Part shown: one piece after another, positions 32,723 to 64,000 of the stretch
Position numbering within the stretch: the first letter of the stretch is position 1
How the letters are laid out: each line of letters starts with the position of its first letter
Source: Acidobacteriota bacterium
GTDB lineage: Bacteria; Acidobacteriota; Blastocatellia; RBC074
NCBI GenBank assembly: GCA_016710075.1
Contig: JADJLO010000035.1
Span: forward strand, 2,532 to 66,531
Length of the DNA stretch: 64,000 nucleotides
Direction of reading: 5' to 3'
The notes under the pieces: generated by a model
Databases searched by the model: none
The model's input: the letters and a program-made list of their open reading frames with translations, nothing else
What the model was told of the DNA's origin: nothing
Translations under genes and position numbers: made by a program

Positions 32723-33143
32723 TCGGTATCGCGTCGACTATCATCGCGCGGATGCGCGCCAGAGTCAGTATCAGGAAGACCACGCCTGAAATGAAGACAG
32801 CTCCGAGCGCCACGTGCCAGTCATAGCCCATCCCCTTCACGACGCTGTATGTGAAATAGGCATTGAGCCCCATTCCGGGCGCAAGAGCAAAAGGATAGTT
32901 TGCGATCAACCCCATCATCAGCGAACCGATAGCCGATGCGATGCACGTGGCAAAGAGCGCCCCTGAAAACGGGACTCCCGCTTCGCTCAATATCGCCGGA
33001 TTGACGAAGATGATGTAGGCCATCGTCAGGAATGTAGTCACCCCTGCGGCAACCTCTGTGCGGATTGTCGTCTTGTTCTCGGTAAGCTTGAATAGCCGTT
33101 CGAGTGAATTGGTCAGATATGCCTGTGTCACGCCGACTCCCAA
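32723..33143 (-). CDS. NCS2-family nucleobase permease, N-terminal part (frameshift ~32725)
   Basis: MGVGVTQAYLTNSLERLFKLTENKTTIRTEVAAGVTTFLTMAYIIFVNPAILSEAGVPFSGALFATCIASAIGSLMMGLIANYPFALAPGMGLNAYFTY... Confidence 0.7.
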
Positions 33144-41300: not shown

Positions 41301-41422
41301 AATATTCCCTGGCCGCTGCGATCGAGGCCGCTGCCGGCCGGCCGCGCCACTTCCTCCGCCATGAGTGTCACGCCGGTGAGAATGACTAACAAGCTGATGA
41401 TGGTGGTGATGGTTGTTTTCAT
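38375..41422 (-). CDS. CRTAC1-family protein: N-terminal PHB-depolymerase-like esterase + FG-GAP/VCBS repeats + C-terminal ASPIC/UnbV domain
   Basis: Signal peptide MKTTITTIISLLVILTGVTLMA; LQRRYLVHVPKKYAADRPTPVILVFHGGGG...GLSNGG (esterase); many DxNxDGxxD FG-GAP repeats; C-terminal HWLRVRFSG... Confidence 0.75.
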   Translation of the reverse strand: MKTTITTIISLLVILTGVTLMAEEVARPAGSGLDRSGQGILEPGEHTRTVTVGSLQRRYLVHVPKKYAADRPTPVILVFHGGGGNPESMVRLSGMNTKSEEAGFIVVYPFGTGALDNNRLTFNGGGCCAYAMQNKIDDVGFTRALLDDLAKVANVDTNRVFATGLSNGGIMAYYLASELSDRIAAIAPVGGPLMMDACRPRRAVSVMHFHGTADEFAPFNGGFGKGAAGAKGVTDFKSVDHSIQNWVKANGCNDKPEIVALPDKADDGMRVTRKTWGGGKDGTEVVLIEIEGGGHTWPGMEPPAWLGKSTKDILANDLMWEFFQKHPMKPSAVTKPSVPQNQPPASKPASDNAPGKLKALPDSDATRDAAGTGQMFEAIHVPGFTDFREGLNGFALGDFDKNGYLDILTVTTEPFALDATWADETGGVKRTRNPKDKLRLLLNFGGFRLQAQAVTLTGSAATPDDLSQGWRGGQVPALADFNGDGLLDIFITRQAPMSNGKIREGFKPVGCSLFLSDGRLDRFRDVSVEYGALNEMAYNRQVSLGDVNRDGFIDIALGADNIVNAFEGLPKSALLVFQPKDGKFAGGRFTDIGGTDLIPDFGGFYHDSARDKAGPNLALRDIDNDGDLDLIQSTHVLLIAAQPPTLPFSPAEYRHGIFNWRNLLAESGRFQFEKVTDNGFACEARLRYDRNVERLVPMTEARAPGLPYLFFGDVNNDGLLDALAVGGGDPFNRPATEDVGARFWYNRGGFRFEEATAKSGLARLNQSYREWFAFFDAAPSDAIKAFNPAARKIRSQPGLTPKNPFDNRALYSDAVFADFNNDGWLDIVVFDRLESPAIETRSFLFLNRGDGTFEPQPTTISGLNGTGICGAAADLNNDGLLDLIIAADPDNTGVASDPHRYESMVFMNAGTRGARENHWLRVRFSGVSDAQLLGASVEVREPGTNRLLGMRGIYSNQGYKSSSALEAHFGLGKIGRVNLEVRLPGGRKVKVANVAADRYLDLNLKEGTARKVEVK

Positions 41423-42297
41423 TGTTTCTCCTTCAGAGCTGTCCGCGTAGAACGAATCGGTGTTGCCGTTTGCGTCCATGATAAGTCACGGAGGAATGGC
41501 GCCTGCAATACGGCATCCTCGTAAAACGGCCTCGGCGCCCAGGTACTTTTCAACGTCATGTGATTACTGCCCATGCTGTGTAGCCAGTAACCTGGCAGAT
41601 TGGCAAAACGCGCGTGGGGACTGCGGATGACTTCCAGCTTGCCGGTCTGCCGCGTCGCGCCTGTTGTGGCGGCGCCACGTAATGAAGCGGGCACGGCGGC
41701 GCGCCATCCCTCTTTCAGTGTCTTGCGCATTTCGGCCAATACCGGCGCGGCTTTCGGATCATTGACCAGATTGGTGAATTCGTGTGGATCGGTCTGATGA
41801 TCGTAAAGCTCCGCCGTCATTTCATCGCCCCACTCAGTGTAGCGGTAACGCTCCGTGCGCACACTTCGCCCCATCAGGTTACGCCGCGCGAGCGTTGTGA
41901 ACGCCGCTTTCTTCCACGCCTGTTTGGGATTGTCGAGCAACCGCGCGAAGCTCAGGCCTTCGACACCCACGGGCGCGGGCAAGCCGCAGAGTTCCGCCAG
42001 CGTCGGATAGATATCCACGAATTCCACGAGTCGTGGTGAAACAACATTCGCGCGTTTTTTCGGCGCGACAACAATCAGCGGCGCGCGGGCGCATTCTTCA
42101 AACAGTGTCAGCTTGCGCCACAGGCCGCCGTGTTCGCCCAGGTGAAAACCGTGATCGCCGATGAAAACGATGATCGTGTTGTCGCTCAGCTTCAACCGAT
42201 CCAGCGTGTCGAGCAGAATCCCGACTCCGGCATCCATCAGCGAAGTCGCCGCGTGATAGGCTGCGATGGCCTGCCGCCGTTGCGCGTCGGTCAACAC
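41419..42297 (-). CDS. Sulfatase, C-terminal part
   Basis: ...NTIIVFIGDHGFHLGEHGGLWRKLTLFEECARAPLIVVAP...; tail of ORF is out-of-frame extension overlapping the next gene. Confidence 0.75.
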   Translation of the reverse strand: MLTDAQRRQAIAAYHAATSLMDAGVGILLDTLDRLKLSDNTIIVFIGDHGFHLGEHGGLWRKLTLFEECARAPLIVVAPKKRANVVSPRLVEFVDIYPTLAELCGLPAPVGVEGLSFARLLDNPKQAWKKAAFTTLARRNLMGRSVRTERYRYTEWGDEMTAELYDHQTDPHEFTNLVNDPKAAPVLAEMRKTLKEGWRAAVPASLRGAATTGATRQTGKLEVIRSPHARFANLPGYWLHSMGSNHMTLKSTWAPRPFYEDAVLQAPFLRDLSWTQTATPIRSTRTALKEKQ

Positions 42298-42317
42298 CTC
42301 ATCGCCGGAATGATGCG

Positions 42318-43169
42318 TCAGCGCAGGCGCGGGAATGTCGGCGCGGTCATTGGCGGGTGTGGCGGGAAGCGGCGCATGGCCTGCGGATAAAGGTCAAAAT
42401 ACTTTTTCGGCGCGATCCACGGCAGGTGCGGTTTGTGAAATCCGGCGGCGATGAAAAACGGTTTGTCCTGGTTCGCTTCGAGCAATTTGGCCACGCGGCG
42501 CGCCGTATTGCCGTCGGGTTCGTCTTCGTCTTTGGTGTTGGTCGCCCGCCAGGTGAGCGGCACGCCGCCTTCATCGCCGGGCTTGAGTTGCTTGAGCAGG
42601 GCGTCGCGCGACAGCCCCGTGCGCCCGCGATAATTCATCCGCTCGGCATCCGGCGGTTTGGTGCGGTCAGCCACTTCCGACCCGTCTTCGTCGGGCACGA
42701 AATAGGCCGACGGGTCAGCGTCTTCCGATACATCCCACGAAACCAGGCTGTTGTAAGTGTCGTGCGGAATCTTGCCGATGCGCGCGGTGAAATAGCCGTG
42801 CTGTTTGAAGTATTCCGGCAACATCACTACGTCTTTCAGATTCGTGCGCGGGTCGGTGGCATTGTTGTAGATGCGCGTCGTTTCGGGGCGGCGGCCGCTC
42901 AGGAATGACGTGCGCGACGGGCTGCACAACGGATACTGGCAATAGGCGCGGTCGAATTTGACGCCGCGTTTGGCGAGCCGGTCGAGATTGGGCGATTTGG
43001 TGATCGCGTCGCCGTAGGTGCTGAGCGAAGTGTTCAGATCATCGGCGACGATGAACAGCACATTCAGCTTTTTCGTTTGTGGCTGTGCGACAGTGCGCTG
43101 AAGCGCGACACCAGCACAGAGGGCGAGGATGGAAAGAAACGCAGCGGATAATTTTAAGATCTTTTGCAA
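42318..43169 (-). CDS. Sulfatase (Cys-type, formylglycine motif), N-terminal part; frameshift ~42300-42360
   Basis: Signal peptide; LNVLFIVADDLN...CQYPLCSPSRTSFLSGRRP (C-x-P-x-R). Confidence 0.8.
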   Translation of the reverse strand: MQKILKLSAAFLSILALCAGVALQRTVAQPQTKKLNVLFIVADDLNTSLSTYGDAITKSPNLDRLAKRGVKFDRAYCQYPLCSPSRTSFLSGRRPETTRIYNNATDPRTNLKDVVMLPEYFKQHGYFTARIGKIPHDTYNSLVSWDVSEDADPSAYFVPDEDGSEVADRTKPPDAERMNYRGRTGLSRDALLKQLKPGDEGGVPLTWRATNTKDEDEPDGNTARRVAKLLEANQDKPFFIAAGFHKPHLPWIAPKKYFDLYPQAMRRFPPHPPMTAPTFPRLR

Positions 43170-43788: not shown

Positions 43789-45837
43789 TCAAAAATACAG
43801 TTTCAGTGCAAACTGCATCTGCCGCGCATCTTCTGCTGCCAGCAACCGTCCGAAATTCGCTGAGCCCAGAACCGAAACCGGCGTCGTGAAATTCGTGCGA
43901 TTGAAAACGTTGAAGCCCTCAACGCGAAATTGCAGCCGCATCGTTTCGGTAAATTTGAAGTTGCGTTGCAACGACACATTCGTGCTGAAATGACCAGGCC
44001 CGCGCAGGTTCGAAAAGGTGCGCGGTGAATTGCCGAAGGTGTATTGCGGCGGTGCCTGGAACGCGGCGGTATTGAACCATTGCAACGACGTTTTCCGTTG
44101 GGTCGCGTCGGCAATCACGGGATCGCCAATCAGATTCGGACGCAAACCACCCACTGCCGCAGTGCTGCCAACAAAGGCCAGGCCTTGCAAGCCATTGCTC
44201 ACCGCCAGAATGTTGAGCGGGAAACCGCCTTGCGCCTGCACAATTGCGTTGACGCCCCAACCGCCTACGATTTGCCCGATCACGCCTTCTTTCAACCAGC
44301 GCCGGTCGTAGCCGAACGGCAGTCGCCACGTCACGTTGCCGATGAAGCGATGCCGCACGTCAAAGGTCGAAAGCCCCTTGTTATCGCGGCGGTTGTAGTA
44401 ATTCTGATAGTTCGGATTCTGAATCGTCGGCCCGGCAGAGATGGACGACACGTCGTCAATCGTCTTCGCGAACGTGTAGCTGCCGTTGAAGAGCAGGCCG
44501 TCGCTGAAGCGCCGCTCGACACGCAGTTGCAGTGAATGATAGGTCGCGTGCGATTCGTTCATGTTGTACGACACGACGTTGCCGAATTGCGGGAACGGGC
44601 GCAGCAATTGTCCCACCGACAGGGTTGCCCGTCCGAGGATCGAAGTCGCTGCCGGACGCTGATCTGCGGGCAACGTCAAAAACGGATTCGCCATCAGCGT
44701 ATTCAGCACCGTCGCGCCCAGCGCCACCGTTTCCGGCGTCAGTTGATTGAGGTCGGTTGGCCCCGAAAGCAAGCCAATACTCGCGCTGCCTGCGTATGCT
44801 GCTTGAACTTTCAAATGCCACGGCAATTCGCGTTGCAAACTCAGATTCCATTGGGCGATTTTCGGCTGGCGAATGTCGCGCACTTTGACCGGCAGCGATT
44901 GTTGCCCGTAGCCGTAAAACGCGCCGGGGAAAGTAGCGGGAACTTGCACGATGCCGTTGGGAAATGGATTGCTCAGGCTCGTGCCGGGCGTCGGTGTGAC
45001 GTTGTCGAGCGAGGCGATGAACGGCGTTTCGCCAATGTCTGATAGCGCGTAGGTCGCCGTCGAAAACCCGCCGCCGGAATTTGACGCATAGAAAATGCCG
45101 CCGCCCGCGCGCAACACTGTCTTGTCATCCAGCTTGAACGCGAGTCCGATGCGCGGCCCCCAATTGTTCAGGTCGCGGTCGAATTGCTCGCGGCTGCTCA
45201 CGCCGTTGCGACCAATCGGAGTGACCGTGCCGCGCATGTTGATCGTGCGCGTGCCGAGGTTCGTGGCGGCGGGAAAGGCTACGGAAAGGCTGCTGACCGG
45301 GAACTGCCCGTTGCGGTCGAAATTCGTCAACCGATTGAAGCGTTCTGTGTTGCCTAAATCCGCTTCCCAGCGCAGCCCCAGATTCAGCGTCAGCCGGTTG
45401 TTGACCTTCCAATCGTCCTGCGCAAAAAAGGCGTAGTACAGATTCTGCACCGCCGGTTGTGGCACAATCGCCAACCGCCCCGCGTTCGGATTGCCGAGCA
45501 GCAACGACGCGACGGCATCGCCCGATTGCGTGTCGTTCGCCGTGCGCGCCGTGAATCCGCGTGTGAAGGTGAAGTTGCCCGCCGGGTCATCAGGCCGATA
45601 GTTGTAGATGCGATAGGCGCGCTGGTTTGCGCCCAGCTTGAACGAATGCGCGCCCTGCAACAGGCTCACATCCTGATTGAGCGTGAAGGTGTCCTGATTA
45701 TTCAGCGCGTTGCCAAAGCCGCGCGTCGGGCCGAGCGTGGTGTAACCCGCCACGGTGGTGCTCGGAAAGACACGTGTATCGCCTGAGGCCTTTCGCCAGA
45801 TACGCCGGAAAGCCGAGCGTGGTGAGATCGAAGCCAT
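43789..45837 (-). CDS. TonB-dependent receptor, C-terminal beta-barrel part
   Basis: Long beta-barrel, ends with C-terminal aromatic ...QFALKLYF. Confidence 0.8.
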   Translation of the reverse strand: MASISPRSAFRRIWRKASGDTRVFPSTTVAGYTTLGPTRGFGNALNNQDTFTLNQDVSLLQGAHSFKLGANQRAYRIYNYRPDDPAGNFTFTRGFTARTANDTQSGDAVASLLLGNPNAGRLAIVPQPAVQNLYYAFFAQDDWKVNNRLTLNLGLRWEADLGNTERFNRLTNFDRNGQFPVSSLSVAFPAATNLGTRTINMRGTVTPIGRNGVSSREQFDRDLNNWGPRIGLAFKLDDKTVLRAGGGIFYASNSGGGFSTATYALSDIGETPFIASLDNVTPTPGTSLSNPFPNGIVQVPATFPGAFYGYGQQSLPVKVRDIRQPKIAQWNLSLQRELPWHLKVQAAYAGSASIGLLSGPTDLNQLTPETVALGATVLNTLMANPFLTLPADQRPAATSILGRATLSVGQLLRPFPQFGNVVSYNMNESHATYHSLQLRVERRFSDGLLFNGSYTFAKTIDDVSSISAGPTIQNPNYQNYYNRRDNKGLSTFDVRHRFIGNVTWRLPFGYDRRWLKEGVIGQIVGGWGVNAIVQAQGGFPLNILAVSNGLQGLAFVGSTAAVGGLRPNLIGDPVIADATQRKTSLQWFNTAAFQAPPQYTFGNSPRTFSNLRGPGHFSTNVSLQRNFKFTETMRLQFRVEGFNVFNRTNFTTPVSVLGSANFGRLLAAEDARQMQFALKLYF

Positions 45838-47410
45838 CCGAGAACTGTGTCACCCGATTATTAAAGCGCGTCACACCCGCGTTGAAATGCGCGACTACGC
45901 GCGGCGAGGCCGTCCAGACGTAATCCAGCACCAGCGACACCGGACGGTTTGTTACAAACGGACCGCCCTGCGTTCCGGCGATGGAGCCAGGAAACGGCCC
46001 GGCGTTCTCAGTGGAATTGAAATCCTTGATGATGCGCCCGTAAACCAGGTGTTTCTGCGAGAGGTTGTAATCCAGCCGCACGACCATCTGATTTTCAGTA
46101 TTGGAAATGGGCGAATTCACGACGTAGTTATTGGTGAAGCCCGCGCGATTTGGCAGCGGATAATAGGCCGCGAGGTTGCGCCCGACGACATTCTGCTGTG
46201 CCCGGGGAATCACGTTGTTCGCAAAAACAATGCGCGATCCGGCGCCGGGCTGCCCGGCAGCCACCAGCGCGCCCGGCACGTAAATCATCCCAACGCGCGC
46301 CGGAATCAAGGCCCCGCTCGTGTCGCGCACATTGACGCCTGTAATCGCCGCGCCGAGCAGTTCAGAAAAATCGCCGTCGCGTTGTTTAAGTGTCGGCACA
46401 TTCGATTGCCGCAACTGCGCCTGCCGCACGCGCAACGCCTCATAGTTGAAAAAGAAAAACAACTTGTCGGATTTCTTCACCGCTGGGCCACCCGTGCCAA
46501 AGCGCGGCAGATAGACGGGGCCACCCAGATTGCCGCCGAATTGGTTGAAGCGGAATTTGCTTTTTTGCAAGCCCGTCTGATTGACGAAAAAATTAGTGGC
46601 ATCCAACGCATCATTGCGCAGAAATTCAAACAGCGTCCCACGCACTTTTGTCCCGCCCGAACGCACCGAAAAGTTGAGCGAGCCGCCGCCCGTGCGCCCG
46701 TATTCCGACGAGTACGAATTGGTGATGATGCGGAATTCCTGAATCGCTTCGGGTGAGGGCCGCAAACTCGGCAGGTTGTCGGCTTTGTTTGTGACCGGCA
46801 CGCCGTCCACCACGATTTCATTCGTCAGCGTGCGTCCGCCATTAATCGAAAGTTCGCCGACGCCGCCTGCGCCTAGACTGGGAATCGCGCTGCGCGATCC
46901 CGGCGAACTGCTGACCCCTGCTTCGAGCTGAGCGAGCTGAAAGACATTGCGCCCGTTCAACGGCAAATCGTCTATCTGTGTCCGTTGCACGACCCCGCCG
47001 AGCGCGCCCGACGCCGTGTCGAGTTGCAATGAGGCTTCGCTGGCGGTCACGGTGATAGTGTCGGTGATGTTCCCGGGTTGCAGCACGATATTTAGCTCAG
47101 CGTTTTGCGCAACAGCCAGCTCAAATCGTTCAAGCTTGTAGCTCTTGAATCCTTGCGCCTGCACTTCCAGCGAGTAGCCGCCAGTTTCCAGGAAAGTGAA
47201 GTTGTATTGGCCATCGCCTCTAACAGCAAAGGTGCGTTTCAGCCCGGTCGAGGCCTGAATCAAAGTCACGGTCGCGCCAGGGGTGACGTTTCCAGTGCCG
47301 TCAGCCACCGTGCCTCTGAGCGTAGCCGTGGCCGTTTGCGCGAAGCCGGCGCTGGTTAAGCCAACCAGCAAGAACAACGTAACAAGGACGAATTTATCCA
47401 GTTTAGACAT
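45698..47410 (-). CDS. TonB-dependent receptor with N-terminal carboxypeptidase-regulatory-like domain, N-terminal part (frameshift ~45700-45840)
   Basis: Signal peptide MSKLDKFVLVTLFLLVGLTSAGFAQTATATLRGTVAD...; plug region DDLPLNGRNVFQLAQLEAGV... Confidence 0.8.
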   Translation of the reverse strand: MSKLDKFVLVTLFLLVGLTSAGFAQTATATLRGTVADGTGNVTPGATVTLIQASTGLKRTFAVRGDGQYNFTFLETGGYSLEVQAQGFKSYKLERFELAVAQNAELNIVLQPGNITDTITVTASEASLQLDTASGALGGVVQRTQIDDLPLNGRNVFQLAQLEAGVSSSPGSRSAIPSLGAGGVGELSINGGRTLTNEIVVDGVPVTNKADNLPSLRPSPEAIQEFRIITNSYSSEYGRTGGGSLNFSVRSGGTKVRGTLFEFLRNDALDATNFFVNQTGLQKSKFRFNQFGGNLGGPVYLPRFGTGGPAVKKSDKLFFFFNYEALRVRQAQLRQSNVPTLKQRDGDFSELLGAAITGVNVRDTSGALIPARVGMIYVPGALVAAGQPGAGSRIVFANNVIPRAQQNVVGRNLAAYYPLPNRAGFTNNYVVNSPISNTENQMVVRLDYNLSQKHLVYGRIIKDFNSTENAGPFPGSIAGTQGGPFVTNRPVSLVLDYVWTASPRVVAHFNAGVTRFNNRVTQFSDGFDLTTLGFPAYLAKGLRRYTCLSEHHRGGLHHARPDARLWQRAE

Positions 47411-48679: not shown

Positions 48680-49969
48680 TCATTGTTGTACACGCGCCAG
48701 ATCAGTGCCGTAACGGCGCGCGGCCAGCCACGCCGGAATGGCGGCAGTGAATCCGATGCAGGCGCAAATCAACAACCCGCGCCACAGGCTTTCGCGGTCG
48801 CCAATTGCACCCGATACCAGTGGCCCTAGTCCCGTGCCGAGCAAATTCAGCGCGAGCAATAAAAACGCCACGGCAGTCGAACGAATGCGTGCGGGCGTCA
48901 AATCCTGCACGGTCGCAAAGACGGGGCCGTACCACATGGTGCTGCCCAGACTCGAAAAGAACCAGCAAACGTAAAACAAATAAAAGGGCGTTTCGGTTGA
49001 GAGCGTATAAAACAGCAGCGTGAACGGCATGAAACACAAAACATTGGCGACGAGAAACCACATGCGCCCGCCGACCCAGCGCCGCTGAAACCAATCGCTG
49101 ACGTACCCGCCCAGGATCGTGCCGAGCATACCGGCGACGGTAAAGATGCTGGCGCTGGTGAAAGCGGCCTGTTGATAGGTAAAGCCGCGTTCGAGGTTGA
49201 GCCACGTCAGCACCATGCTCGAAGCACTGAAGGAGAAGCTGATGATCACGCCCGCCAGAATCGCCAACAACAACGCAGGCATGCGGCGTAAGGTCTGAAA
49301 TAGTTCGCGGTAAATCTCGCGCGTCGTCAATGCTGCTTCGGCTTCGGCTTTGGTATGGAAGGGTTCGGCTCGTTCCGCCGCTTCGGCCTGCCCGCGCTGC
49401 GGATTGCGAATCATCCGCACTAGCGGCACGAGCAACAGCCCCAGCACGCCCAACACGTAAAAGCATGCGCGCCAGCCATAACGCGGCGCGATGTAACCCG
49501 CAATCAGCATGCTCACGCCCGAACCCAACGGCACGCCTGCGTAATAAAACCCCGAAGCGAACGCGCGCTTTTTCGGCGGGAAAACATCGCCTAGCAACGA
49601 GACCGCGGCCGGTGCCAGCGTCGCTTCGCCCACGCCAACGAGCAGGCGCGCCATGGTCAGGTGCAGAAAATTCACCGCCGCGCCCGATGCTGCTGTCAAC
49701 GCGCTCCACAACGCCAGGCCTCCGGCCATCAGGCGCGGGCGATTCATGCGATCTGCCGCGTTGCCCAGCACTATCCCCATCAAGGTATAAAACGCCAGAA
49801 AGATGTAGCCGTACAGCAGCGCAATTTTCGCCAGTGACAGACCCAGCTCCGCCCGCAACAGCGGGGCCAGATAGACGATCAATTGCCGGTCAATAAAGTT
49901 GATGACGTTGAGCAGTGTCAGAAAGAACAACAGCCCATACGCCTTGCGGCTGGAATAGTGATGATCCAT
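48680..49969 (-). CDS. MFS transporter
   Basis: 429 aa, 12 predicted TM, MFS motif GxxADRMNRPRL between TM2-3. Confidence 0.85.
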   Translation of the reverse strand: MDHHYSSRKAYGLLFFLTLLNVINFIDRQLIVYLAPLLRAELGLSLAKIALLYGYIFLAFYTLMGIVLGNAADRMNRPRLMAGGLALWSALTAASGAAVNFLHLTMARLLVGVGEATLAPAAVSLLGDVFPPKKRAFASGFYYAGVPLGSGVSMLIAGYIAPRYGWRACFYVLGVLGLLLVPLVRMIRNPQRGQAEAAERAEPFHTKAEAEAALTTREIYRELFQTLRRMPALLLAILAGVIISFSFSASSMVLTWLNLERGFTYQQAAFTSASIFTVAGMLGTILGGYVSDWFQRRWVGGRMWFLVANVLCFMPFTLLFYTLSTETPFYLFYVCWFFSSLGSTMWYGPVFATVQDLTPARIRSTAVAFLLLALNLLGTGLGPLVSGAIGDRESLWRGLLICACIGFTAAIPAWLAARRYGTDLARVQQ

Positions 49970-50162
49970 AAAGATATTCGATGCAGTTGAGGGAACGGTA
50001 GCGACCTGGCGACTGTGCGTTGTTCACATCCAGAGTCACTGTATCACTTGTATGTTGAGTTCCAACACCGCGCGCTACAACGCGCCGGTGAACTTCCTGG
50101 GGGCACTTGGGAAAGGTGATGGCAGCAATCTGACAGGTCGCTGTCGCCTTTGAGCCTGAGCG

Positions 50163-52954: not shown

Positions 52955-53340
52955 GTTCTGATTCCGGCAGTCGAGGGAAGAAAGATCACCGTCTCCGTCG
53001 ATGACATAATCATCGGCAGCACCGCCCCGGGGGCTCCAGCCAGCTTTAAAGTCCCCGCAGGTCAGCACAGAGTCTTCATTGTAAAATGAAGGGGAAGAAT
53101 GGAGAATGGAGAATGGGGAATATCTGTTGAGGTCACAGATGCTTCCCATTCTTCGTTCTACATTCTTCATTCTACATTCTTCATTCTTCCTTCATTCTTC
53201 ATTCTTCAGCATCTCGGCGGGAAGACCGGGATGATCAGGGTTGCAGCCTGAGTCAGCGTCAGTTGATGCAGGTTATGGCCCTGGTTGAAGGCTCCGGATT
53301 GGACATTCGAGTTCTTGTTGAGGTTGATGACCGCCCCGAA
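52955..53340. repeat. ~420-bp direct repeat, copy 2 (orphan GH63 3' fragment + heptamer hairpin 53098-53205 + true 3' end of giant gene)
   Basis: See copy 1 at 37337-37755. Confidence 0.8.
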
Positions 53341-53619
53341 CATTCCGTTTTCAGACAGCGAGTAGAGCTTCATCCATCCGGTGCGGCCCGGCGGAATCGC
53401 CGACTCGAATCGCGGAGCCGTCCTCGGGAAGCTGTTTGAGAGGCTGTTTCTCAACTGGCAGCCTCCGGTGATGTTGAAGCTGTAGCCCTGCTCGACGTCG
53501 TCGTAAAGCAGACCGAAGATCGTGCCCAGAGTCAGACCGCCGGCCGAAAGATTGCCTCCGAAGCGGTTGATTATCAGCATCGTGTCGTTGCCGTCGCCCT
53601 TTGCCGGGAGGTTGTCCAC
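53206..53619 (-). CDS. Giant Gly-rich Pmp/PbH1-like surface protein, C-terminal domain (piece 6 of one ~9.5-kb gene 53206-62781)
   Basis: ...[42 protein letters not shown]; in another frame from 53574-55859, overlap 45 bp. Confidence 0.6.
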
Positions 53620-55859
53620 GGCCAGGACTCTTGGGACTCCGTTGTAGCTAACTCCGTCGAAGTTGAGCGTCGCTGTTGTGGAATTCGCGTCGCACAGCGG
53701 CAGCCCTCGGCCAGGGCCGAGATGGCCTCGGCTCCGAGGTTGGCGGCGTGGCCGCTGCTGAACTTCACATATTCATCACCGATCAGGTAGTTGAAGTCGA
53801 TTGGGCATCCCCTGTCGTCAACCGCCACTGCAACCAGATACCCTGTCGTTCCCGGATCGATGTCCGATGCCAGGAAGGTGTAGGTCTGATTGGGCGTCAG
53901 GCATACATACATATCCGCCGCCGTGCACGAAACTCCGTCCACGAAGAAGAGGTGAACCGTGGCCCTGAGCACCGGATGAACATTTGTGATCGAAATCCGT
54001 GTGTTCTGTGCGTTGTAGTTCGCCGCATCGGAACTGTAGATGTTGTAGAAGAGGACCGATCCCGCCTTCTGATCGCTTGCCGGCGACTTGGCATCAGGAA
54101 TCACCCCTGTGCCGAGCGCCGGGCAGTTGACCGTCAGGCAGGCCACAACGCTTCCCGCAGGGCTGGCGCCAACCGTACCCGATGACGTGATGCACATCTG
54201 CGTGCCGGTTACGACCTGGTCGCCGATCTGCGCCTTGTACTTGATCGTCACCGTCTGGTTTCCGGCGAGTGTTCCCGACCAACTGACGGTCGAGCCATTG
54301 ACCACATTACAGGTCCCGACATTTGCCGAACACGTGCCCGGCACTGCGAGCAGGCCCGCCGGCAGCGAAGCCGTGAAAGTAGCCGATTGTGAAGAGTTCG
54401 CGCCGTTGGTCACTGTCGCCGTGACATCGACCGCGCCGCCGGGACCCGTGCATAGCGCAGGATCGGCGATGCTTGCCGTTACGCCGCTGACGGCTATGAC
54501 AAACGTCGCATCGGTCTGTGCCCCGCAATTGTCTGTCGCGCGAATGGTGATCGTGTGGCTGCCGGCAGGGCCGGCATTCGAAATCGTCACCACCCCAGCC
54601 GCATTGACAGCAACCGTCCCGGTGAAGGTCCCCTTGCTTTGGACGATGATGGTCGACACGCTGCCGTTGTCGCTCGGGCCTGTTGCCGGGTTGATCGTCG
54701 TCCCGCTGCCGGCGATGACGTTCTGCAGTGCGCCGTAGCTCAGCGTCGGGGCAGTGTTGGCCGATACCGTCACATTGAGCGTGGTTTCGGTGAAGTCTCC
54801 CAGGCTGTCGGTCACCCGCAGCGTGAAGCTCGCATTGGTCGCCGTGCACGTGGCCACGACATCAGCCGTCACCACACCAGCAGCGGATACAGCGATGTTT
54901 GACACTGTCACGCCGTTGACCGTGGCAGAAGTTCCTCCGTCGACCTTGACGCTCAGAGTTTCCTCAGCGTCCTCAAGGTCGTTGACGTTGGCTATGGTTG
55001 AGTTGGCCGACGGGCTGCCTTGCTGCCGGCTCGTCGCCACCGCTCCGATCGTCGGCGGCGTGTTGACCTTGAGCGAGAAGGTCTGCTGTGTCTCTGCCCC
55101 GCAGTTGTCCTTCACCGTCACCGTGATTGTGTAAGTTCCGGCCGGGGCCGCATTGCTGATCGTGATCGCGCCGGTCATCGTATTCCCGACCAGGCTGCCG
55201 GTGAACGTGTTGGGCGAGGCCGTCGCCGTCACCGAGGCGATCGTCCCGTTGTCGGCCGGCGCCGCCGACGGCGTCACCGTCGTCCCGCCGCCATTCGGCA
55301 CAGTCGTCGCGGCATAGGTCCCCACCGTCGGGGCCGTGTTCGCCGTCACCGTCACATTGAGCGTGGTTTCGGTGAAATCGCCCAGGCTGTCGGTCACCCG
55401 CAGCGTGAAGCTCGCATTGGTCGCCGTGCACGTGGCCACGACATCCGCCGTCACCACACCAGCGGCGGATACAGCGATGCTTGACACCGTCACGCCGTTA
55501 ACCGTGGCCGACGTCCCGCCGTTGACCGTAACGCTCAACGTATCCTCCGCCTGATCAACGTCGTTGACGTTGGCTATGGTTGAGTTGGCTGACGGGCTGC
55601 CCTGCTGCCGGCTCGTCGCAACCGCTCCGATCGTCGGCGGCGTGTTGACCTTGAGCGAAAACGTCTGCTGCGTCTCTGCCCCGCAGTTGTCCTTCACCGT
55701 CACCGTGATCGTGTAGTTGCCCGCCGGAGCGGCATTAGTGATAGTGATTGCTCCGGTCATCGTATTCCCGACCAGGCTGCCGGTGAACGTGTTGGGCGAG
55801 GCCGTCGCCGTCACCATCGCGATCGTCCCGTTGTCAGCCGGCGGCGCCGACGGCGTCAC
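53574..55859 (-). CDS. Giant surface protein, piece 5: tandem ~190-aa Ig-like repeats + C-terminal domain
   Basis: Two near-identical units APADNGTIA...[51 protein letters not shown]...TLNVTV(T/S)ANTAPT. Confidence 0.65.
54716..55859. repeat. Tandem direct repeat, 2 x ~570 bp (>95% identical) inside the giant gene; a third, diverged unit upstream (~55860-56430)
   Basis: e.g. 54761-54920 vs 55341-55500 nearly identical. Confidence 0.8.
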
Positions 55860-58800
55860 CGTCGTCCGCCTCCCGTCAACAGGCTCGTCGCGGCATAGTT
55901 GCCGACCGTCGGAGCCGTGTTCGCCGTCACTCTGACCGTCAGGTAGCCCGTCGAGCTCGCCATGAAGATGTCGGTCACCGTCAACTCGACCGTGTTATCT
56001 CCGATCGCCGCGTTGCAGCCGGCCGCCACATCCGCCGTGATCGTCCCGTTCGTGTTGACGATGTTGGTCACCGTGATCCCCGCCGGCACTGTCGTTGCCG
56101 TGACGACCAGTGTTCCCGCCGACTGGTTCGCATCGTTAACCGTTGCGATCACCGGGTTGATCGCCGCCGATCCCTGCTGCCGATTGAGCGGTCCGCTTAC
56201 CATGATCTGCGGCGGCGGATTGAGGTTGGTCAAGGAGAAGTTGACTCCGCTCGCGGCACCGTTGGCCGAGGCCGCCACGTTGTACGGGCCTCCCACCGTG
56301 CCGTTGGCCGTGACCGTTCCGGTTGTCGCTGTGCCGCCCGCGATCGTCGCCGGATTGCCCGCGATCGCCGCGCTCGCCCCGCTTCCCGGAGGCGTGAAGG
56401 TTACCAACCCTCCATTGACCGGCTCGCTGAAGGACGAGGTCACATTCACCGAGAGCGGATTGGCGAAGGCCGTGTTGACGAACGTGCTCTGATTGTTGCC
56501 GCCATTGATCGCCAGCGAGAAGCCTCGCGACTCGAAGGCTCCGATGTCGGTGGCCCCCACACGGGCAATCCCGCGCTGGTCGGCCGCGGGCGCTCCGCTG
56601 CTTGTGCCCGCGTTGATCGCCGGGCTCCCGGGGAGCAGCGCGTGCGTCTGCGTCGGCCCTCCGTAATTGCCCAGCGGCGCAAGCAACGCAACTATCGGGT
56701 TGACTATTGTTCCGACGATGTCGCCGTTGACTCCATTGGTGAATCCGCTTGTGCCGTCGCTGTCCAAATTATTTCCCAGCGAACTCAAAATGAATTGGGG
56801 CAAGGCAATCTGGTCGACATTGGTTGCGAAATTGCCGCCGCCGTTATTGAAAACAAGTGTGTTTTTGAGAGTCGTGGTGACCCTCGCGTTCGGGTCGGTA
56901 TTTCCGCTGTCCGTCCAGACTGCGCCGAAAGGAGCAACCGAGGTGTTGTTCGTAATTGTGCAATTGATCAGGGCCAGGGTGCTCGTTGTGCGATAGTAGA
57001 GTAGATTGGCAATCCCACCTTGAGAGAGCTGACTGATATTCCCGCTGATGGTGCAATTGGTCAGGGTGGCGGTGGCATCCTGGATATTCACGCCGCTGGC
57101 CTGGAATGTCGTATTGTTTCCGCTCACCGTACTATTGGTCATAATCAACGGCGCGAAGCCTTGAAAAATGCCTCCGCCGTTATCTGCACGGTTCCCGCTG
57201 ATGGCGCAGCCAGTGATGGTCAGGGTGCCGGTGGAATAGACGCCGCCGCCAAAACCCGTGCCCGCATCGCCATTTGAAATCGTCAGGCCGTCCAGCGTGA
57301 CCGTCTTGCCGCTGTTGATCGTAAAGATTCGGAAAGCGGTCATGGAGTTGCGGCGGACATTCAGTTGATCCGCCCCCGGCCCGTCGATCGTCAGGTTCGG
57401 GTGATTCAGGTTGGGAAGCGCAGTCGCCAGGTTGATCGTCCCCGTGACGCTGAAATCGATCGTCAGCGGCGAGCAGGGCGGGATCGCGTTGGCCTCCATG
57501 ATCGCCGCCCGCAGTGTGCATTTGCCGGTCGCATCCGCGCAGATGGTGTCTCCCGGCGTCGCGTCCGGCGTATCGCCCAGGTCGTTCACGGTAAACAGAG
57601 TCGGACAGGCCAGGATCCTCACCGTAAACGGCACAGAGCCGCTCACGCAGCTAGTCGTGACATTGCGCACGGTCAGTGTGCCGTTGTAGGTCGCCGGCGA
57701 TGCCATCCCGGGCACCGTCAGGACGATTGGCGTCGAGGGCAGCGCCGCATTCGTCACATCCACGAAGCCAGCGGTATTGGCCGTCGCATCGTAGTCGATG
57801 CTGTATTGAGTCGGACTGCCGGTGGTCGCCGTGTACGGCAGGTTCGCGCTCGTTATTCCCGGCAGGACTGACGGGCTCGCTCCCAGCGTGATCGTCGGCA
57901 GCGGGTTGACCGTCACATTCTTGTTGAACGTCGTCGGACAACCAAATCCATCCGTCACTACCACCGTCAGCTTGACGGGACTAACTGTGCCGGCTGTCCA
58001 GGTGATCGAGGCGATATTCGTCGCGCTGGTGATCGTTCCGTTCTCGATCGCCCAGGCATAGCTCGCCCCCATCGTTGCCGTGATCGACGCCGGGTTGCCC
58101 GTCGATAAGGCGCAGACGGCATCCGGCGCCGTCAGCGTCCCGGCATAGGCGGTACAGCAGAGTTCGTATGCACCGATATCAGGAGTGTTGCCCTGCGGCC
58201 GCATCGTTCCGGTCTGATCCGTGGCGGGCGAGGTCCCGGAAGCCGCGTTGATCGCCGGGCTGTTGGCGAGCAGGGGCAGGACCGCAGGTTTGCACGTGCC
58301 CGCCGCACAATTGCTGAGCACGGCGAGCGCGCCGAGATTGGGATTGCTCGACAGAGTCGGGCTGCCGGATTCGGTCGCGCCGTTGATCGAGGTCTTCGCC
58401 ATCACCAGGTTGCCGTTGCTGAAGGTGACGGTCGCGGTGTTGGCCTGGGTGCCGTCGCGTTTGTCGTTGACCAGATCGTTCGTGCCGCCGCTCGTCGTCG
58501 CCAGGATTGAATTGCTGATGGTGGCGGTCGCGGTGGAAGCCGAGCCGTCCTCAATCTTGTTGCCGAAGGCCAGGTTGTACACCGCGCCGCCGTCGGCCTG
58601 TGCGCTGCTGCCGCCTGTTCCTGCCGTCACGGTGTTAGCCGCAAGGGTGGAACTGGTAATCGTGGCCGAGCCATTGAGGTTGAAGATCGCTCCGCCAAAA
58701 CCACTTCCGCCGTTCGCACCATTGCCGCCTTGCGCCGTATTGAGCGTCATTGTGGTGTTGATGATGGTGAGCGTGCCACGATGGTTGAAAATTGCCCCGC

Positions 58801-59133
58801 CCATCCCGCCGCCTCCTCCTCCGGAGTTGCCACCAGCGAAGCCACCGCCGCCGCCGACGCCGCCGTTGGATCTGAACCCGCCGCCGCCGCCGCCGAACCC
58901 GCCGCCACCGCCGTTGGAAGCGCCGATACCACCGCCGCCTGCGAACCCGCCGCCGCCCCCTGGAGGGCCTGCTGCTCCACCCCCACCGCCGACACCGCCA
59001 CCAGCTCCGCCACCACCGTTGGGCGCCCCGCCACCGAAACCGAACGCCCCCCCGGCCCCGCCGGCCCCGAAGTTGCCTCCGCTGCCTCCGCTGCCTCCGT
59101 CGCCTCCGTCACCAAAACCGGAGCCAAGTCCGC

Positions 59134-62229
<3,096 letters not shown>

Positions 62230-62345
62230 CGGAATTTCCGTTACGGGCGAATCCGCTGCCGTTTCCGCCGGGCAACGTTGTTTTCATGCGACCGGGTCAG
62301 ATTGTGCGCCCTCAGGCGGCGGTTGGGGTCTTGCCTGCCTTGGCA

Positions 62346-62558
62346 TCAAGTCGCGCCGCGCCCCATGCGCCCGTTGCGCCCGCCGCCGTTGGCCAGCGTC
62401 AGGTTTTGAATCGTGATCGTGCCGTTCTGAATCCAGAAGATGCGAGAGGCATTGCCGCCGCTGATCGTCAGGTTGGCCTGGCCGGGACCGTTGATCGTCA
62501 CGTCATCGGTGATCACCAGAAAATAGTTAGCCGGATTGACCGTGATCGTTCCGGTCAC
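62346..62558 (-). CDS. Giant surface protein, piece 2 (first beta-helix turns)
   Basis: ...SGSLRQAILDANANPGADIIDATGVTGTITVNPANYFLVITDDVTINGPGQANLTISGGNASRIFWIQNGTITIQNLTLANGG. Confidence 0.55.
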   Translation of the reverse strand: MTGTITVNPANYFLVITDDVTINGPGQANLTISGGNASRIFWIQNGTITIQNLTLANGGGRNGRMGRGAT

Positions 62559-62781
62559 TCCCGTGGCATCGATGATGTCGGCGCCCGGATTGGCATTGGC
62601 GTCGAGTATCGCCTGTCGCAGCGATCCGGAGCCGGAATCGTTTGGAGAAAGTCGCGATGCCCGCCATCCGGGCTGCCTTCACTCCCAGCCCGGTAAGGTG
62701 AATGGCGGCCAGACTCCCCAGCAAGCCAAGCGTTAAGAGAATAAGCTTCATCCGTTGTGTGTAGTTAAGATGGCGGCGCAT
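62527..62781 (-). CDS. Giant surface protein, piece 1: start and signal peptide
   Basis: MRRHLNYTQRMKLILLTLGLLGSLAAIHLTGLG; frameshift ~62650. Confidence 0.5.
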   Translation of the reverse strand: MRRHLNYTQRMKLILLTLGLLGSLAAIHLTGLGVKAARMAGIATFSKRFRLRIAATGDTRRQCQSGRRHHRCHGSDRNDHGQSG

Positions 62782-63027
62782 ATGGGTCTCCTGATTCGAC
62801 TCGCACAAGACACACTTGTGCTCTCGGCTTAGTCCCAGTGATTGCGGATCCTCCGTGTCAAACAAATGAAGCGGGGATGCAGCTTGATTTATGTTCACAT
62901 TTAACGCGAGATTCCAGGTCGATCTTCCAGTAAGTGCAGTAAGTGCAGTGAGGGGAATCTCGCAAGCGTCAGTGTACCGACATTTCCAATATCAGTCCAG
63001 ATAATTGCAGGAATTTCCAAATCCAGG

Positions 63028-63617
<590 letters not shown>

Positions 63618-63642
<25 letters not shown>

Positions 63643-64000
63643 TGCTCGAGGAAATAATCCTCATCGAGCTTCAACCCCGTCTCGTCAAACATCGGTTTGA
63701 GCACTTCATCGGTGGTTCCGGGATAGGTCGTTGATTCGAGTATCACCAGTTGACCCGGCTTGAGTGTTGCCTGAATCTTTTCAGAGGCAGAGAGGATGAA
63801 TGAAACGTCCGGATCTTTCGTCTTTCGAAGCGGAGTCGGCACACAGATGATGATGATGTCCTGATCTTTGAGCCCCGAAAAATCCGTTGTCGCACTGAGC
63901 TTTCCGGCCTTCACCAGCTCGGCCACATGCGCCGTCGGCACATCCGGAATATAGGATTCTCCGCGATTGATCGCATCGGCTTTCCTCTGATCGACTTCGA
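63618..64000 (-). CDS. Nucleotide-sugar dehydrogenase, central part; N-terminus beyond right edge of window
   Basis: ...DIIIICVPTPLRKTKDPDVSFILSASEKIQATLKPGQLVILESTTYPGTTDEV... (the 106-aa track ORF begins MPTAHVAELVKAGKL). Confidence 0.75.

What the first reader, a model, noticed from the sequence alone, without database searches (positions are those of the whole stretch)
53206..62781. ~9.5-kb gene for a giant Gly-rich, Pmp-like (GGAIFN) beta-helix surface protein with internal 570-bp tandem repeats and G/C homopolymer tracts at every frame break
Six consecutive minus-strand ORFs read as one protein of about 3,200 aa. Its parts, in order: signal peptide; pectate-lyase-like N-terminus (SLRQAILDANANPG...); at least 8 GGAIFN...TL..N beta-helix turns (resembling chlamydial polymorphic membrane protein motifs) separated by long GGGGxGG runs; 3 or more Ig-like repeats of about 190 aa; and a distinct C-terminal domain. 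All five frame breaks fall in C/G runs (for example the C-tract at 55858, C7 at 59274-59280). This could be slipped-strand phase variation of a surface adhesin, or simply homopolymer sequencing error. The two near-identical 570-bp units are also prone to copy-number change or assembly collapse.
Basis: partly seen in the sequence, partly recalled or inferred. Interest (0 to 1): 0.7.

Follow-up and report, generated by a model that had tools for sequence, protein, structure and literature searches.

The report
Giant adhesin-like gene split by assembly errors
The six reading frames are one ordinary, very large secreted repeat-protein gene of a wastewater soil-type bacterium (Acidobacteriota), and comparison with two sister assemblies points to genome-assembly mistakes, not a genetic on/off switch, as the reason it looks broken.

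Summary
The six minus-strand ORFs are real and belong to one gene. Two of them are identical to GenBank proteins IPJ07_20070 and IPJ07_20065 of an Acidobacteria MAG. Two sister assemblies about 98% identical to the window carry the same locus. In a three-way alignment, every frame break in the window is private to the window. The majority consensus is a single uninterrupted ORF of 3,246 codons.

The breaks are:
- a 20-nt deletion;
- a 231-nt degraded zone with 17 gaps (142 nt missing);
- three single-base losses in C runs of 5, 3 and 2 nt.

The C7 and C6 tracts are in frame and identical in all three assemblies. Small indels are as frequent in the flanks as in the gene (6 against 6). At least seven ordinary neighbouring genes are also split. 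One sister MAG is documented as a Nanopore assembly. Phase variation is therefore not supported; residual long-read consensus error is the best explanation.

The protein has a signal peptide, four beta-solenoid-like modules of the CSLREA/choice-of-anchor-Q class (three expanded with glycine), PKD/Ig-like domains including a 582-nt tandem repeat, and a conserved 311-aa C-terminal domain that no library describes. No Chlam_PMP match and no autotransporter barrel were found.

The parts
53206..62781 (-). Whole gene as it stands in the window. It runs from the ATG at 62781 (GGAG 6 nt upstream) to the TGA at 53206-53208. The intact form is 3,246 codons.
   Evidence: ORF list; frame map; the three-assembly majority consensus gives one ORF of 3,246 aa.
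62671..62781 (-). Predicted Sec signal peptide, residues 1-37 (MRRHLNYTQRMKLILLTLGLLGSLAAIHLTGLGVKAA).
   Evidence: Read from the sequence: a basic n-region, a hydrophobic core and no Cys. No signal-peptide predictor was available, so this is an inference.
62642..62643 (-). Break 1. Here 20 nt (CATTCACCGTCACGAATACC) are missing from the window. Both sister assemblies read ...TFSTFTVTNTNDSGSGSLRQ...
   Evidence: Pairwise and three-way alignments.
62152..62382 (-). Break 2. This is a degraded zone with 17 gaps, all in the window, that sum to 142 nt, plus 27 window-private substitutions in the 500-nt bin. At least two frame changes occur here.
   Evidence: L001 and L002 are identical to each other here and stay in frame.
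59346..59349 (-). Break 3. The window has a C4 run on the + strand. L002 has C5 and reads through; L001 has a substitution at this spot plus a private extra T 10 nt upstream.
55866..55867 (-). Break 4. The window has CC where both sister assemblies and the gene's own second repeat copy have CCC (GGG on the coding strand).
53708..53708 (-). Break 5. The window has one C where both sister assemblies have CC. Restoring the base gives ...[22 protein letters not shown]..., a stretch conserved in distant homologs.
61579..62649 (-). Module 1 (residues 45-455): SLRQAI motif, predicted beta-helix rungs and Gly-rich tract 1 (61909-62384).
   Evidence: (weak NosD-like hit).
59848..61578 (-). Module 2 (residues 456-1032): ELISAI motif, Gly-rich tract 2 (60454-61236), GGAIFN rungs and a choice-of-anchor-Q motif at the end.
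   Evidence: NF041518 hit at 71.1 bits.
58163..59832 (-). Module 3 (residues 1038-1594): ELIGAI motif, Gly-rich tract 3 (58790-59406), three GGA(I/V)(F/Y)N rungs and a choice-of-anchor-Q motif.
   Evidence: The AF2 model of window ORF4 aa 152-371 has pLDDT 87.8 and periodic short strands. Foldseek gives only weak matches, mostly to beta-solenoid proteins.
57605..58162 (-). PKD-like pair of domains (residues 1595-1780).
   Evidence: PF19408 PKD_6, E = 1.3e-5.
56525..57604 (-). Module 4 (residues 1781-2140): CSLREA-type start ([13 protein letters not shown]), Cys-containing rungs without a Gly expansion, and a choice-of-anchor-Q motif.
   Evidence: TIGR04214 at 26.0 bits and NF041518 at 120.1 bits over 2 stretches.
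54474..56218 (-). Array of six alternating Ig-like domains (B'-A1-B1-A2-B2-A'). The tandem 582-nt units lie at 55347-55927 and 54765-55346.
   Evidence: Copy number is the same in all three assemblies.
54141..54473 (-). DUF11-like domain (residues 2825-2935).
   Evidence: TIGR01451, E = 0.0045, below its cut-off. The domain is conserved in the homologs P0006, P0009, P0017.
53209..54140 (-). Conserved C-terminal domain of 311 aa, ending ...IPVFPPRC. It is interrupted by break 5.
59274..59280 (-). It is in frame (..LSWGGMGG..) and has the same length in all three assemblies. The same holds for C7 at 59047-59053, C6 at 61007-61012 and C6 at 61786-61791.

Best explanation
WHAT IT IS. One gene of 3,246 codons encodes a giant secreted, probably surface-associated, adhesin-like protein of a Blastocatellia (Pyrinomonadales) bacterium from activated sludge. 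Its parts, in order:
- a Sec signal peptide;
- four tandem beta-solenoid-like modules; module 4 opens with a CSLREA-domain match, modules 1-3 open with a similar xLxxAI motif, and modules 2-4 close with a choice-of-anchor-Q motif (three of the modules are inflated by Gly-rich tracts);
- PKD/Ig-like spacer domains, including a 2 x 582-nt tandem repeat;
- a DUF11-like domain;
- a conserved 311-aa C-terminal tandem beta-sandwich domain.

WHY IT LOOKS BROKEN. In this window the gene is cut into six ORFs by consensus errors of a long-read metagenome assembly. These are a 20-nt deletion, a 231-nt badly called zone and three single-base under-calls in C runs of 5, 3 and 2 nt. It is not a slipped-strand switch.

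SHOWN: that it is one gene, that the breaks are private to this assembly, that they do not lie in long tracts, and that neighbouring genes are damaged in the same way.

INFERRED: that the lesions are technical rather than real mutations, that the protein is secreted, that it acts in adhesion or matrix formation, and that the C-terminal domain anchors the protein or binds glycan.
For: - Window ORF4 and ORF5 are identical to MBK7600681.1 (IPJ07_20070) and MBK7600680.1 (IPJ07_20065) of 'MAG: Acidobacteria bacterium'.
- Two syntenic sister assemblies exist: L001 (GCA_016711965.1) and L002 (GCA_016717465.1), about 98% identical to the window.
- In the three-way alignment all window breaks are window-private. 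L001 and L002 each carry different private frameshifts: L001 an extra T at 9914 and an extra C at 14137, L002 a G5->G4 change at 9993.
- The majority consensus is one ORF of 3,246 aa.
- P0121 from L002 (2,521 aa) reads through breaks 3, 4 and 5 to the natural C-terminus.
- Ordinary genes are broken too: OEP, xanthine/uracil permease, MGH1-like glycoside hydrolase, sulfatase, TonB-type outer-membrane protein and UDP-glucose dehydrogenase, and the MFS transporter gene carries a 1-nt C5->C4 loss. The sister assemblies have the dehydrogenase, the outer-membrane protein and the sulfatase intact.
- Outside the degraded zone and the heptamer tract, 1-2-nt indels number 6 in the 9.58-kb gene and 6 in 9.49 kb of flanks.
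- The L001 MAG (JADJRY000000000) is listed in the supplement of Singleton et al. 2021 as Blastocatellia; Pyrinomonadales. It was assembled from Nanopore reads with CANU and polished with Racon, medaka and Illumina reads through Racon run with --include-unpolished.
- Family evidence: NF041518 and TIGR04214 hits above their cut-offs, and intact homologs of 2,300-3,240 aa with the same beta-helix modules (CSLREA/choice-of-anchor-Q) and Ig-like repeats, most of those read in full also ending in the same C-terminal domain.
Against: - No reads were available, so technical error cannot be told apart from real mutations fixed in this one population.
- The window's own MAG (IPJ07) could not be found in the stored, truncated part of the supplement. 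Its Nanopore origin is inferred from the locus-tag series and from its sister MAG.
- The degraded zone has lost 38% of its bases, far more than ordinary homopolymer error. It needs a mis-mapping or unpolished-segment explanation, which was not shown.
- Two independent G5->G4 changes fall inside this gene, one in the window and one in L002. One could read that as tract instability.
- The function is inferred from homology and architecture only.
Confidence: 0.85

Rival explanations
1. Real pseudogenisation. The strain behind this MAG has genuinely lost the giant gene, and several neighbouring genes, through deletions and frameshifts, while its relatives keep them.
For: - The lesions include a 20-nt deletion, a 142-nt net loss and a 223-nt deletion in the neighbouring dehydrogenase gene. 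None of these is a classical homopolymer error.
- The window carries more private substitutions than its sisters: 197 against 94 and 73.
Against: - It would require simultaneous decay of at least eight unrelated genes, including transporters, an outer-membrane receptor and a sugar dehydrogenase, in a genome about 98% identical to relatives in which the genes that could be compared are intact.
- The two sister assemblies also carry private frameshifts in the same gene at other sites. That pattern fits noise common to all three assemblies better than decay in one lineage.
- Window-private substitutions cluster in a few 500-nt bins, as expected for locally unpolished consensus.
Confidence: 0.1
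2. Slipped-strand phase variation. Length changes in G/C tracts switch expression of the surface protein on and off, and different assemblies have captured different states.
For: - The gene is rich in short G/C runs: 1.78 runs of 5 or more per kb against 0.41 in the rest of the window.
- Three window breaks and one L002 break are single-base changes in G/C runs, and the state differs between assemblies.
- Poly-G-dependent variation of chlamydial pmp genes is a precedent. This is from my own knowledge and was not checked here.
Against: - The changed runs are only 2-5 nt long.
- The four tracts of 6-7 nt are invariant and in frame in all three assemblies.
- Two of the window's lesions are multi-base deletions.
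- Several simultaneous off-lesions in one gene make no sense for a reversible switch.
- Indel density is the same in the flanks (6 against 6), and similar short-run changes hit two ordinary genes: a C5->C4 loss in an MFS transporter gene and an A2->A3 gain in a TonB-type receptor gene.
Confidence: 0.03
3. Several separate genes. The six ORFs are independent proteins, as GenBank annotates two of them.
For: GenBank lists IPJ07_20065 (761 aa) and IPJ07_20070 (1,138 aa) as separate hypothetical proteins.
Against: - The ORF boundaries cut through conserved domains: an Ig repeat at break 4 and the C-terminal domain at break 5.
- Sister assemblies read through every boundary.
- Homologs are single ORFs.
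- Only the first ORF has a signal peptide.
Confidence: 0.01

Closest known systems
CSLREA-domain / choice-of-anchor-Q beta-helix repeat proteins of Acidobacteriota and other phyla (NCBIfam TIGR04214, NF041518)
   Same: - Both HMMs match above their cut-offs.
- The best homologs carry these names and share the tandem beta-helix modules and the Ig-like repeats; those with the same C-terminal domain (22 of the 120 listed) mostly carry no source name.
   Different: - Three of the four modules here carry very long Gly-rich insertions (50-55% Gly over about 200-260 aa).
- Among the homologs read in full, only P0077 showed a comparable Gly-rich module.
- The family is named, but as far as I know (not checked here) it has not been studied experimentally.
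Chlamydial polymorphic membrane proteins (Pmp; Pfam PF02415; type V autotransporters)
   Same: - GGA[ILV] motifs recur 10 times and sit in a predicted beta-solenoid.
- Some distant homologs (P0059, P0110, P0117) carry precomputed PF02415 hits.
- The region aligns to P0059 and P0110 at about 30% identity.
   Different: - PF02415 itself does not match any segment.
- FxxN occurs 11 times against a rough own estimate of about 6 expected by chance.
- There is no C-terminal autotransporter barrel; the C-terminal domain is modelled as beta-sandwiches.
Gene-fragmenting indel errors in Nanopore R9.4.1-based assemblies
   Same: - Single-base length errors in short homopolymers split ORFs across many genes.
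- The errors differ between independent assemblies of the same species.
- They persist in repetitive sequence where short-read polishing is unreliable.
   Different: The 20-nt deletion, the 223-nt deletion and the 142-nt net loss are larger than typical homopolymer errors. They point to locally unpolished or mis-mapped consensus.
TM1070 / Anabaena sensory rhodopsin transducer (ASRT) beta-sandwich fold
   Different: - Sequence identity is only 7-11%.
- Here the fold appears to be duplicated in tandem, contains Cys and sits at the end of giant secreted proteins.
- No sequence-level relation was detected.

Membership tests
Choice-of-anchor-Q / CSLREA-domain repeat proteins | Match to NF041518 (choice_anch_Q) above the curated cut-off | tested here: met
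   71.1 bits (ORF3) and 120.1 bits over 2 stretches (ORF4 part), against a cut-off of 25.
Choice-of-anchor-Q / CSLREA-domain repeat proteins | Match to TIGR04214 (CSLREA_Nterm) above the curated cut-off | tested here: met
   26.0 bits against a cut-off of 25, at ...[14 protein letters not shown].... The margin is small. The other three modules have the motif without the Cys.
Choice-of-anchor-Q / CSLREA-domain repeat proteins | A recognised C-terminal sorting signal after the repeats (PEP-CTERM, LPXTG, T9SS etc.) | tested here: not met
   No Pfam or NCBIfam sorting-domain hit. Instead the protein ends in a 311-aa undescribed domain ending ...FPPRC.
Chlamydial Pmp / type V autotransporter | Match to the Pfam PF02415 (Chlam_PMP) repeat | tested here: not met
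   No hit on whole ORFs or on five separate GGAIFN-containing segments, even at E <= 10.
Chlamydial Pmp / type V autotransporter | Multiple GGA[ILV] and FxxN tetrapeptide motifs | tested here: inconclusive
   GGA[ILV] occurs 10 times, clearly above chance. FxxN occurs 11 times, against a rough own estimate of about 6 by chance.
Chlamydial Pmp / type V autotransporter | C-terminal outer-membrane beta-barrel translocator | tested here: not met
Slipped-strand (SSR) phase-variable contingency gene | The frame change sits in a long homopolymer or short tandem repeat (typically 7 or more units) | tested here: not met
   The breaks lie in runs of 4 (true length 5), 2 (true 3) and 1 (true 2) nt, or are 20-nt and multi-gap deletions.
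Slipped-strand (SSR) phase-variable contingency gene | Tract-length polymorphism at the long tracts among close relatives | tested here: not met
   C7 at 59047-59053, C7 at 59274-59280, C6 at 61007-61012 and C6 at 61786-61791 are identical in three assemblies.
Slipped-strand (SSR) phase-variable contingency gene | Frameshifts confined to the gene, with clean flanking genes | tested here: not met
   6 small indels in the gene against 6 in flanks of equal length. At least seven other genes are split or frameshifted.
Slipped-strand (SSR) phase-variable contingency gene | Mixed tract lengths within one population (read level) | not testable with these tools
   No reads are available.
Long-read assembly indel artefact | The breaks are private to one assembly and are removed in a consensus of independent assemblies | tested here: met
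   the majority consensus of three assemblies is one ORF of 3,246 aa.
Long-read assembly indel artefact | The source assembly was made from error-prone long reads | tested here: inconclusive
   The sister MAG JADJRY is documented as Nanopore/CANU/Racon/medaka. The window's MAG (IPJ07) was not found in the truncated supplement, so its origin is inferred from the locus-tag series and the species identity.

The most novel reading that the evidence does not exclude
The 311-aa C-terminal domain (window 53209-54140) may be an undescribed anchoring, sorting or glycan-binding module.
- It is a tandem TM1070/ASRT-like beta-sandwich that ends ...IPVFPPxC.
- It has no Pfam, NCBIfam or PDB-sequence match.
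- The profile finds it in 1,575 representative proteins. In about 145 of the best 150, the best-scoring stretch ends at the C-terminus.
- The proteins that carry it have very different N-terminal parts.
On this reading it marks a large class of giant secreted proteins in Acidobacteriota. Separately, and much less likely, some of the G5 run changes could be real population heterogeneity.
Probability: 0.3. Interest if true: 0.45.

Novelty: new member of a known kind. Interest (0 to 1): 0.15.

Why it matters
Mainly as a caution. A striking picture, a giant surface-protein gene with a G/C run at every frame break, turns out to be the expected signature of residual long-read consensus error in GGN-rich glycine-coding sequence. 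In GenBank the gene is accordingly annotated as separate hypothetical proteins.

Reading such loci as contingency genes would create false phase-variable adhesins across long-read MAG collections. Comparing independent assemblies of the same species is a cheap test that works without reads.

Two smaller points follow. The intact 3,246-aa protein is a good full-length example of the little-studied CSLREA/choice-of-anchor-Q giant proteins of floc-forming Acidobacteriota. Its conserved C-terminal domain deserves a family description.

Tried and rejected
- An exact look-up of an ordinary window protein and of P0122 in the contig index found nothing. The window's own contig could therefore not be fetched.
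- A literature search for GCA_016711965 found nothing. The JADKFO and GCA accessions were not in the stored part of the supplement.
- Pfam on the whole 1,595-aa N-terminal half returned nothing. This is probably compositional filtering, so nine separate segments were scanned instead.
The 99%-identical P0121 segment was used instead.
- Foldseek of the GGAIFN-region model against the PDB gave only weak hits (best E = 0.012, TM 0.33). Most of them are to beta-solenoid proteins. The beta-helix call therefore rests on strand periodicity and on homologs with PF13229, not on a significant structural match.
- The profile of the C-terminal domain found no relative among PDB sequences.
- Considered and rejected: the C7 tract at 59274-59280 as the frame-break site; an autotransporter architecture; collapse of the tandem repeat; a programmed frameshift at break 3. 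For the last, the window and L001 are both broken within 10 nt, but by different private changes, and L002 reads through.
Full report
OBSERVATION

The region 53206-62898 holds six consecutive minus-strand ORFs, of 123, 70, 1031, 1138, 761 and 137 codons. Translating all three frames around each junction shows where the coding frame moves:
- f0 to f2 near 62650-62680;
- a confused stretch at 62400-62230 in which all three frames carry stops;
- f0 to f1 between 59385 and 59340;
- f1 to f2 at 55866/55867;
- f2 to f0 near 53708.

The direct-repeat search finds a 582-nt period (54741-55040 against 55323-55622, 90% identity), not 570. The two full units are 89.9% identical in DNA and 181/194 identical in protein. 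They are flanked by half-units that are only 38-43% identical.

THE BREAKS ARE NOT SPECIAL TO THIS GENE

Pfam scans of suspicious overlapping ORF pairs elsewhere in the window show single domains split between frames:
- Xan_ur_permease: profile positions 3-120 in one ORF and 126-386 in the other;
- MGH1-like glycoside hydrolase: 7-122 and 152-325;
- Sulfatase: 2-191 and 199-300;
- OMP_b-brl_4: 2-250 and 257-838;
- the two OEP repeats of a TolC-like protein;
- UDP-glucose/GDP-mannose dehydrogenase: N-domain 55-147, then central domain 27-93.

WHERE THE WINDOW COMES FROM

A homology search with the repaired C-terminal two-thirds found P0001. It is 99% identical, 1,433 aa long, and named 'MAG: hypothetical protein IPL01_00090 [Acidobacteria bacterium]'. 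Its cluster also holds P0122 (1,138 aa, IPJ07_20070), P0123 (761 aa, IPJ07_20065) and P0121 (2,521 aa, IPO77_02200).

P0122 and P0123 are letter-for-letter the window's ORF4 and ORF5. The window is therefore part of that GenBank MAG contig (131,880 bp), where the gene is annotated as separate hypothetical proteins.

The contigs that carry P0001 and P0121 were fetched as L001 (GCA_016711965.1, JADJRY010000001.1) and L002 (GCA_016717465.1, JADKFO010000001.1). Both are syntenic with the window. Both have an intact 442-aa dehydrogenase and an intact 1,206-aa TonB-type outer-membrane protein. L002 also has an intact 583-aa sulfatase.

JADJRY000000000 is listed in the supplement of Singleton et al. 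2021 (PMC8012365) as MAG Hade_18-Q3-R52-61_BATAC.287, classified Acidobacteriota; Blastocatellia; Pyrinomonadales. That study assembled Nanopore reads with CANU. It polished with Racon, two rounds of medaka, and Illumina reads through Racon, with --include-unpolished.

The same origin for the window's MAG is an inference from the locus-tag series and the species identity. It could not be verified because the stored supplement is truncated.

THREE-WAY COMPARISON

Aligning the window (minus strand, 64000-44936) with L001 and L002 gives 40 indel events.

Every lesion that breaks the giant gene in the window is private to the window, with L001 and L002 agreeing against it:
- A 20-nt deletion at 62642/62643. 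The sisters read TFSTFTVTNTNDSGSGSLRQ, the canonical start of this protein class.
- 17 gaps summing to 142 nt in 62152-62382.
- One base lost from a C run at 59346-59349. L002 has five C; L001 has a substitution at this spot.
- One base lost from CCC at 55866-55867. The gene's own second repeat copy also shows this base should be present.
- One base lost from CC at 53708.

Each sister assembly has its own, different frameshifts in the same gene:
- L001 has an extra T at 9914, which ends its 1,210-aa call, and an extra C at 14137, which ends P0001.
- L002 has a G5->G4 change at 9993, just before its 2,521-aa call begins.

Break 3 is therefore not a shared lesion. The window and L001 are broken within 10 nt of each other by different changes, and L002 reads straight through.

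The majority consensus of the three assemblies is one uninterrupted ORF of 3,246 codons, from the ATG at 62781 to the stop.

Outside the gene the window also carries private lesions:
- a 223-nt deletion in the dehydrogenase gene (63646);
- an extra A that splits the outer-membrane protein gene (45793);
- a 2-nt loss at 50075;
- an extra G at 52678.

The window shares a C5->C4 change in the MFS transporter gene (48926) with L002.

Leaving out the degraded zone and the heptamer microsatellite downstream, 1-2-nt indel events number 6 in the 9.58-kb gene and 6 in 9.49 kb of flanks. Small indels are thus no more frequent in the gene than in its flanks.

The four G/C runs of 6-7 nt in the gene show no length difference among the assemblies and lie in frame.

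Window-private substitutions cluster in a few 500-nt bins, including the degraded zone. That is what patchy polishing would produce.

INTERPRETATION OF THE BREAKS

A reversible slipped-strand switch needs one long tract, variation at that tract, and clean surroundings. None of these holds here.

The data fit residual consensus error of a long-read metagenome assembly:
- Nanopore consensus sequences are reported to retain homopolymer indels that cause frameshifts during gene calling (PMC9262707).
- Short-read polishing is unreliable in repeats (PMC8812927 abstract).
- This gene is both GGN-rich (runs of 5 or more G/C are four times denser than in the rest of the window) and internally repetitive.

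The larger deletions are not explained by homopolymer error. I attribute them to unpolished or mis-mapped consensus; this step is inferred, not shown.

Real strain-specific decay cannot be excluded without reads. It would, however, require parallel loss of at least eight unrelated genes in a genome about 98% identical to relatives in which the genes that could be compared are intact. I give it about 0.1, and phase variation about 0.03.

WHAT THE GENE ENCODES

NCBIfam places the protein in the CSLREA / choice-of-anchor-Q class: NF041518 at 71 and 120 bits, and TIGR04214 at 26 bits, all above the cut-off of 25.

The consensus protein has these parts:
- A signal-peptide-like N-terminus.
- Four tandem modules. 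Each opens with an xLxxAI motif (SLRQAI, ELISAI, ELIGAI, TLRAAI), and modules 2-4 close with the choice-of-anchor-Q motif (...GSPAIxAx...DQxG..R.....DIGAxE).
- In three modules the rungs are separated by tracts of 35-55% Gly.
- PKD-like domains.
- An array of six alternating Ig-like domains, whose centre is the 2 x 194-aa tandem repeat.
- A DUF11-like domain.
- A 311-aa C-terminal domain.

An AF2 model of window ORF4 residues 152-371, which carry three GGA(I/V)(F/Y)N rungs, reaches pLDDT 87.8 and shows short periodic strands. Foldseek gives only weak matches, and most of them are to beta-solenoid proteins such as pectate lyases, LnbX, ice-binding proteins and Rhombotarget A. 'Beta-helix' is therefore plausible but not proven.

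Complete homologs of about 2,300-3,240 aa (P0007, P0009, P0013, P0017, P0022) are single ORFs with the same beta-helix modules and Ig-like repeats and the same C-terminal domain.

PMP-LIKENESS

The GGA[ILV] motif recurs 10 times. The region aligns at about 30% identity to proteins that carry precomputed PF02415 hits. Against this, PF02415 itself does not match any segment even at E <= 10, and there is no autotransporter barrel. The resemblance is at the level of a shared beta-solenoid rung motif, not of family membership.

THE C-TERMINAL DOMAIN

- It sits at the extreme C-terminus in 22 of the 120 best homologs, whose N-terminal parts differ widely.
- A profile of 17 sequences finds 1,575 representative proteins at E <= 0.001 and 739 at E <= 1e-30. 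In about 145 of the best 150 the best-scoring stretch ends at the last residues.
- It has no Pfam, NCBIfam or PDB-sequence match.
- The AF2 model (pLDDT 86.8, pTM 0.87) is all-beta.

I read this as a tandem beta-sandwich that anchors the protein to the cell envelope or binds glycan. This is an inference from its position and fold.

VERDICT

The gene is real, large and of a known but little-studied kind. Its fragmentation in this window is best explained as an assembly artefact. Interest is low (0.15). The one loose end worth a family description is the C-terminal domain.

Noticed in passing
window 53147-53208 (+), and onward to about 53047: A heptamer microsatellite (CATTCTT, about 9 copies) begins right at the stop codon of the giant gene. 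This stretch carries 11-, 6-, 29- and 8-nt length differences among the three assemblies and 45 window-private substitutions in its 500-nt bin. The stop codon itself differs: TGA in the window, TAA in the sisters.
   Followed up: partly
window 63646 (gene 63028-63941, -): The window lacks 223 nt inside the UDP-glucose/GDP-mannose dehydrogenase gene. The gene is an intact 442-aa ORF in both sister assemblies. This is too large for a homopolymer error.
   Followed up: partly
window 48926 (MFS transporter gene, about 48700-49968, -): The window and L002 both have C4 where L001 has C5. Only L001 has the full 422-aa transporter; L002 aa. The same under-call in two assemblies suggests either a systematic, context-dependent error or a shared allele.
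   Followed up: no
window 680-2036, 31808-33143, 34953-37500, 41419-43169, 43789-47410: Five more ordinary genes are each split between two frames: a TolC-like OEP, a xanthine/uracil permease, an MGH1-like glycoside hydrolase, a sulfatase and a TonB-type outer-membrane protein. The break in the outer-membrane protein gene was located to an extra A at 45793. The other four were not located to the base.
   Followed up: partly
window 53209-54140 (-); alignment A2; model mc8f0c765aff1: The 311-aa C-terminal domain has no Pfam, NCBIfam or PDB-sequence match. Its profile finds 1,575 representative proteins, nearly always with the domain as the last one. A few proteins carry 2-3 copies or an N-terminal copy (for example P0127, P0130, P0133). 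The modelled fold resembles TM1070/ASRT beta-sandwiches.
   Followed up: partly
L001 9914 and 14137; L002 9993: The two public sister assemblies carry their own private frameshifts in the same gene. As a result it is annotated there as 1,210 + 1,433 aa (L001) and as 2,521 aa (L002). None of the three GenBank records shows the intact 3,246-aa protein.
   Followed up: yes
window 38375-41479 (-): A second giant secreted-type gene lies nearby: 1,034 aa with FG-GAP/ASPIC repeats plus a predicted esterase domain. It sits immediately downstream of the split sulfatase gene.
   Followed up: no
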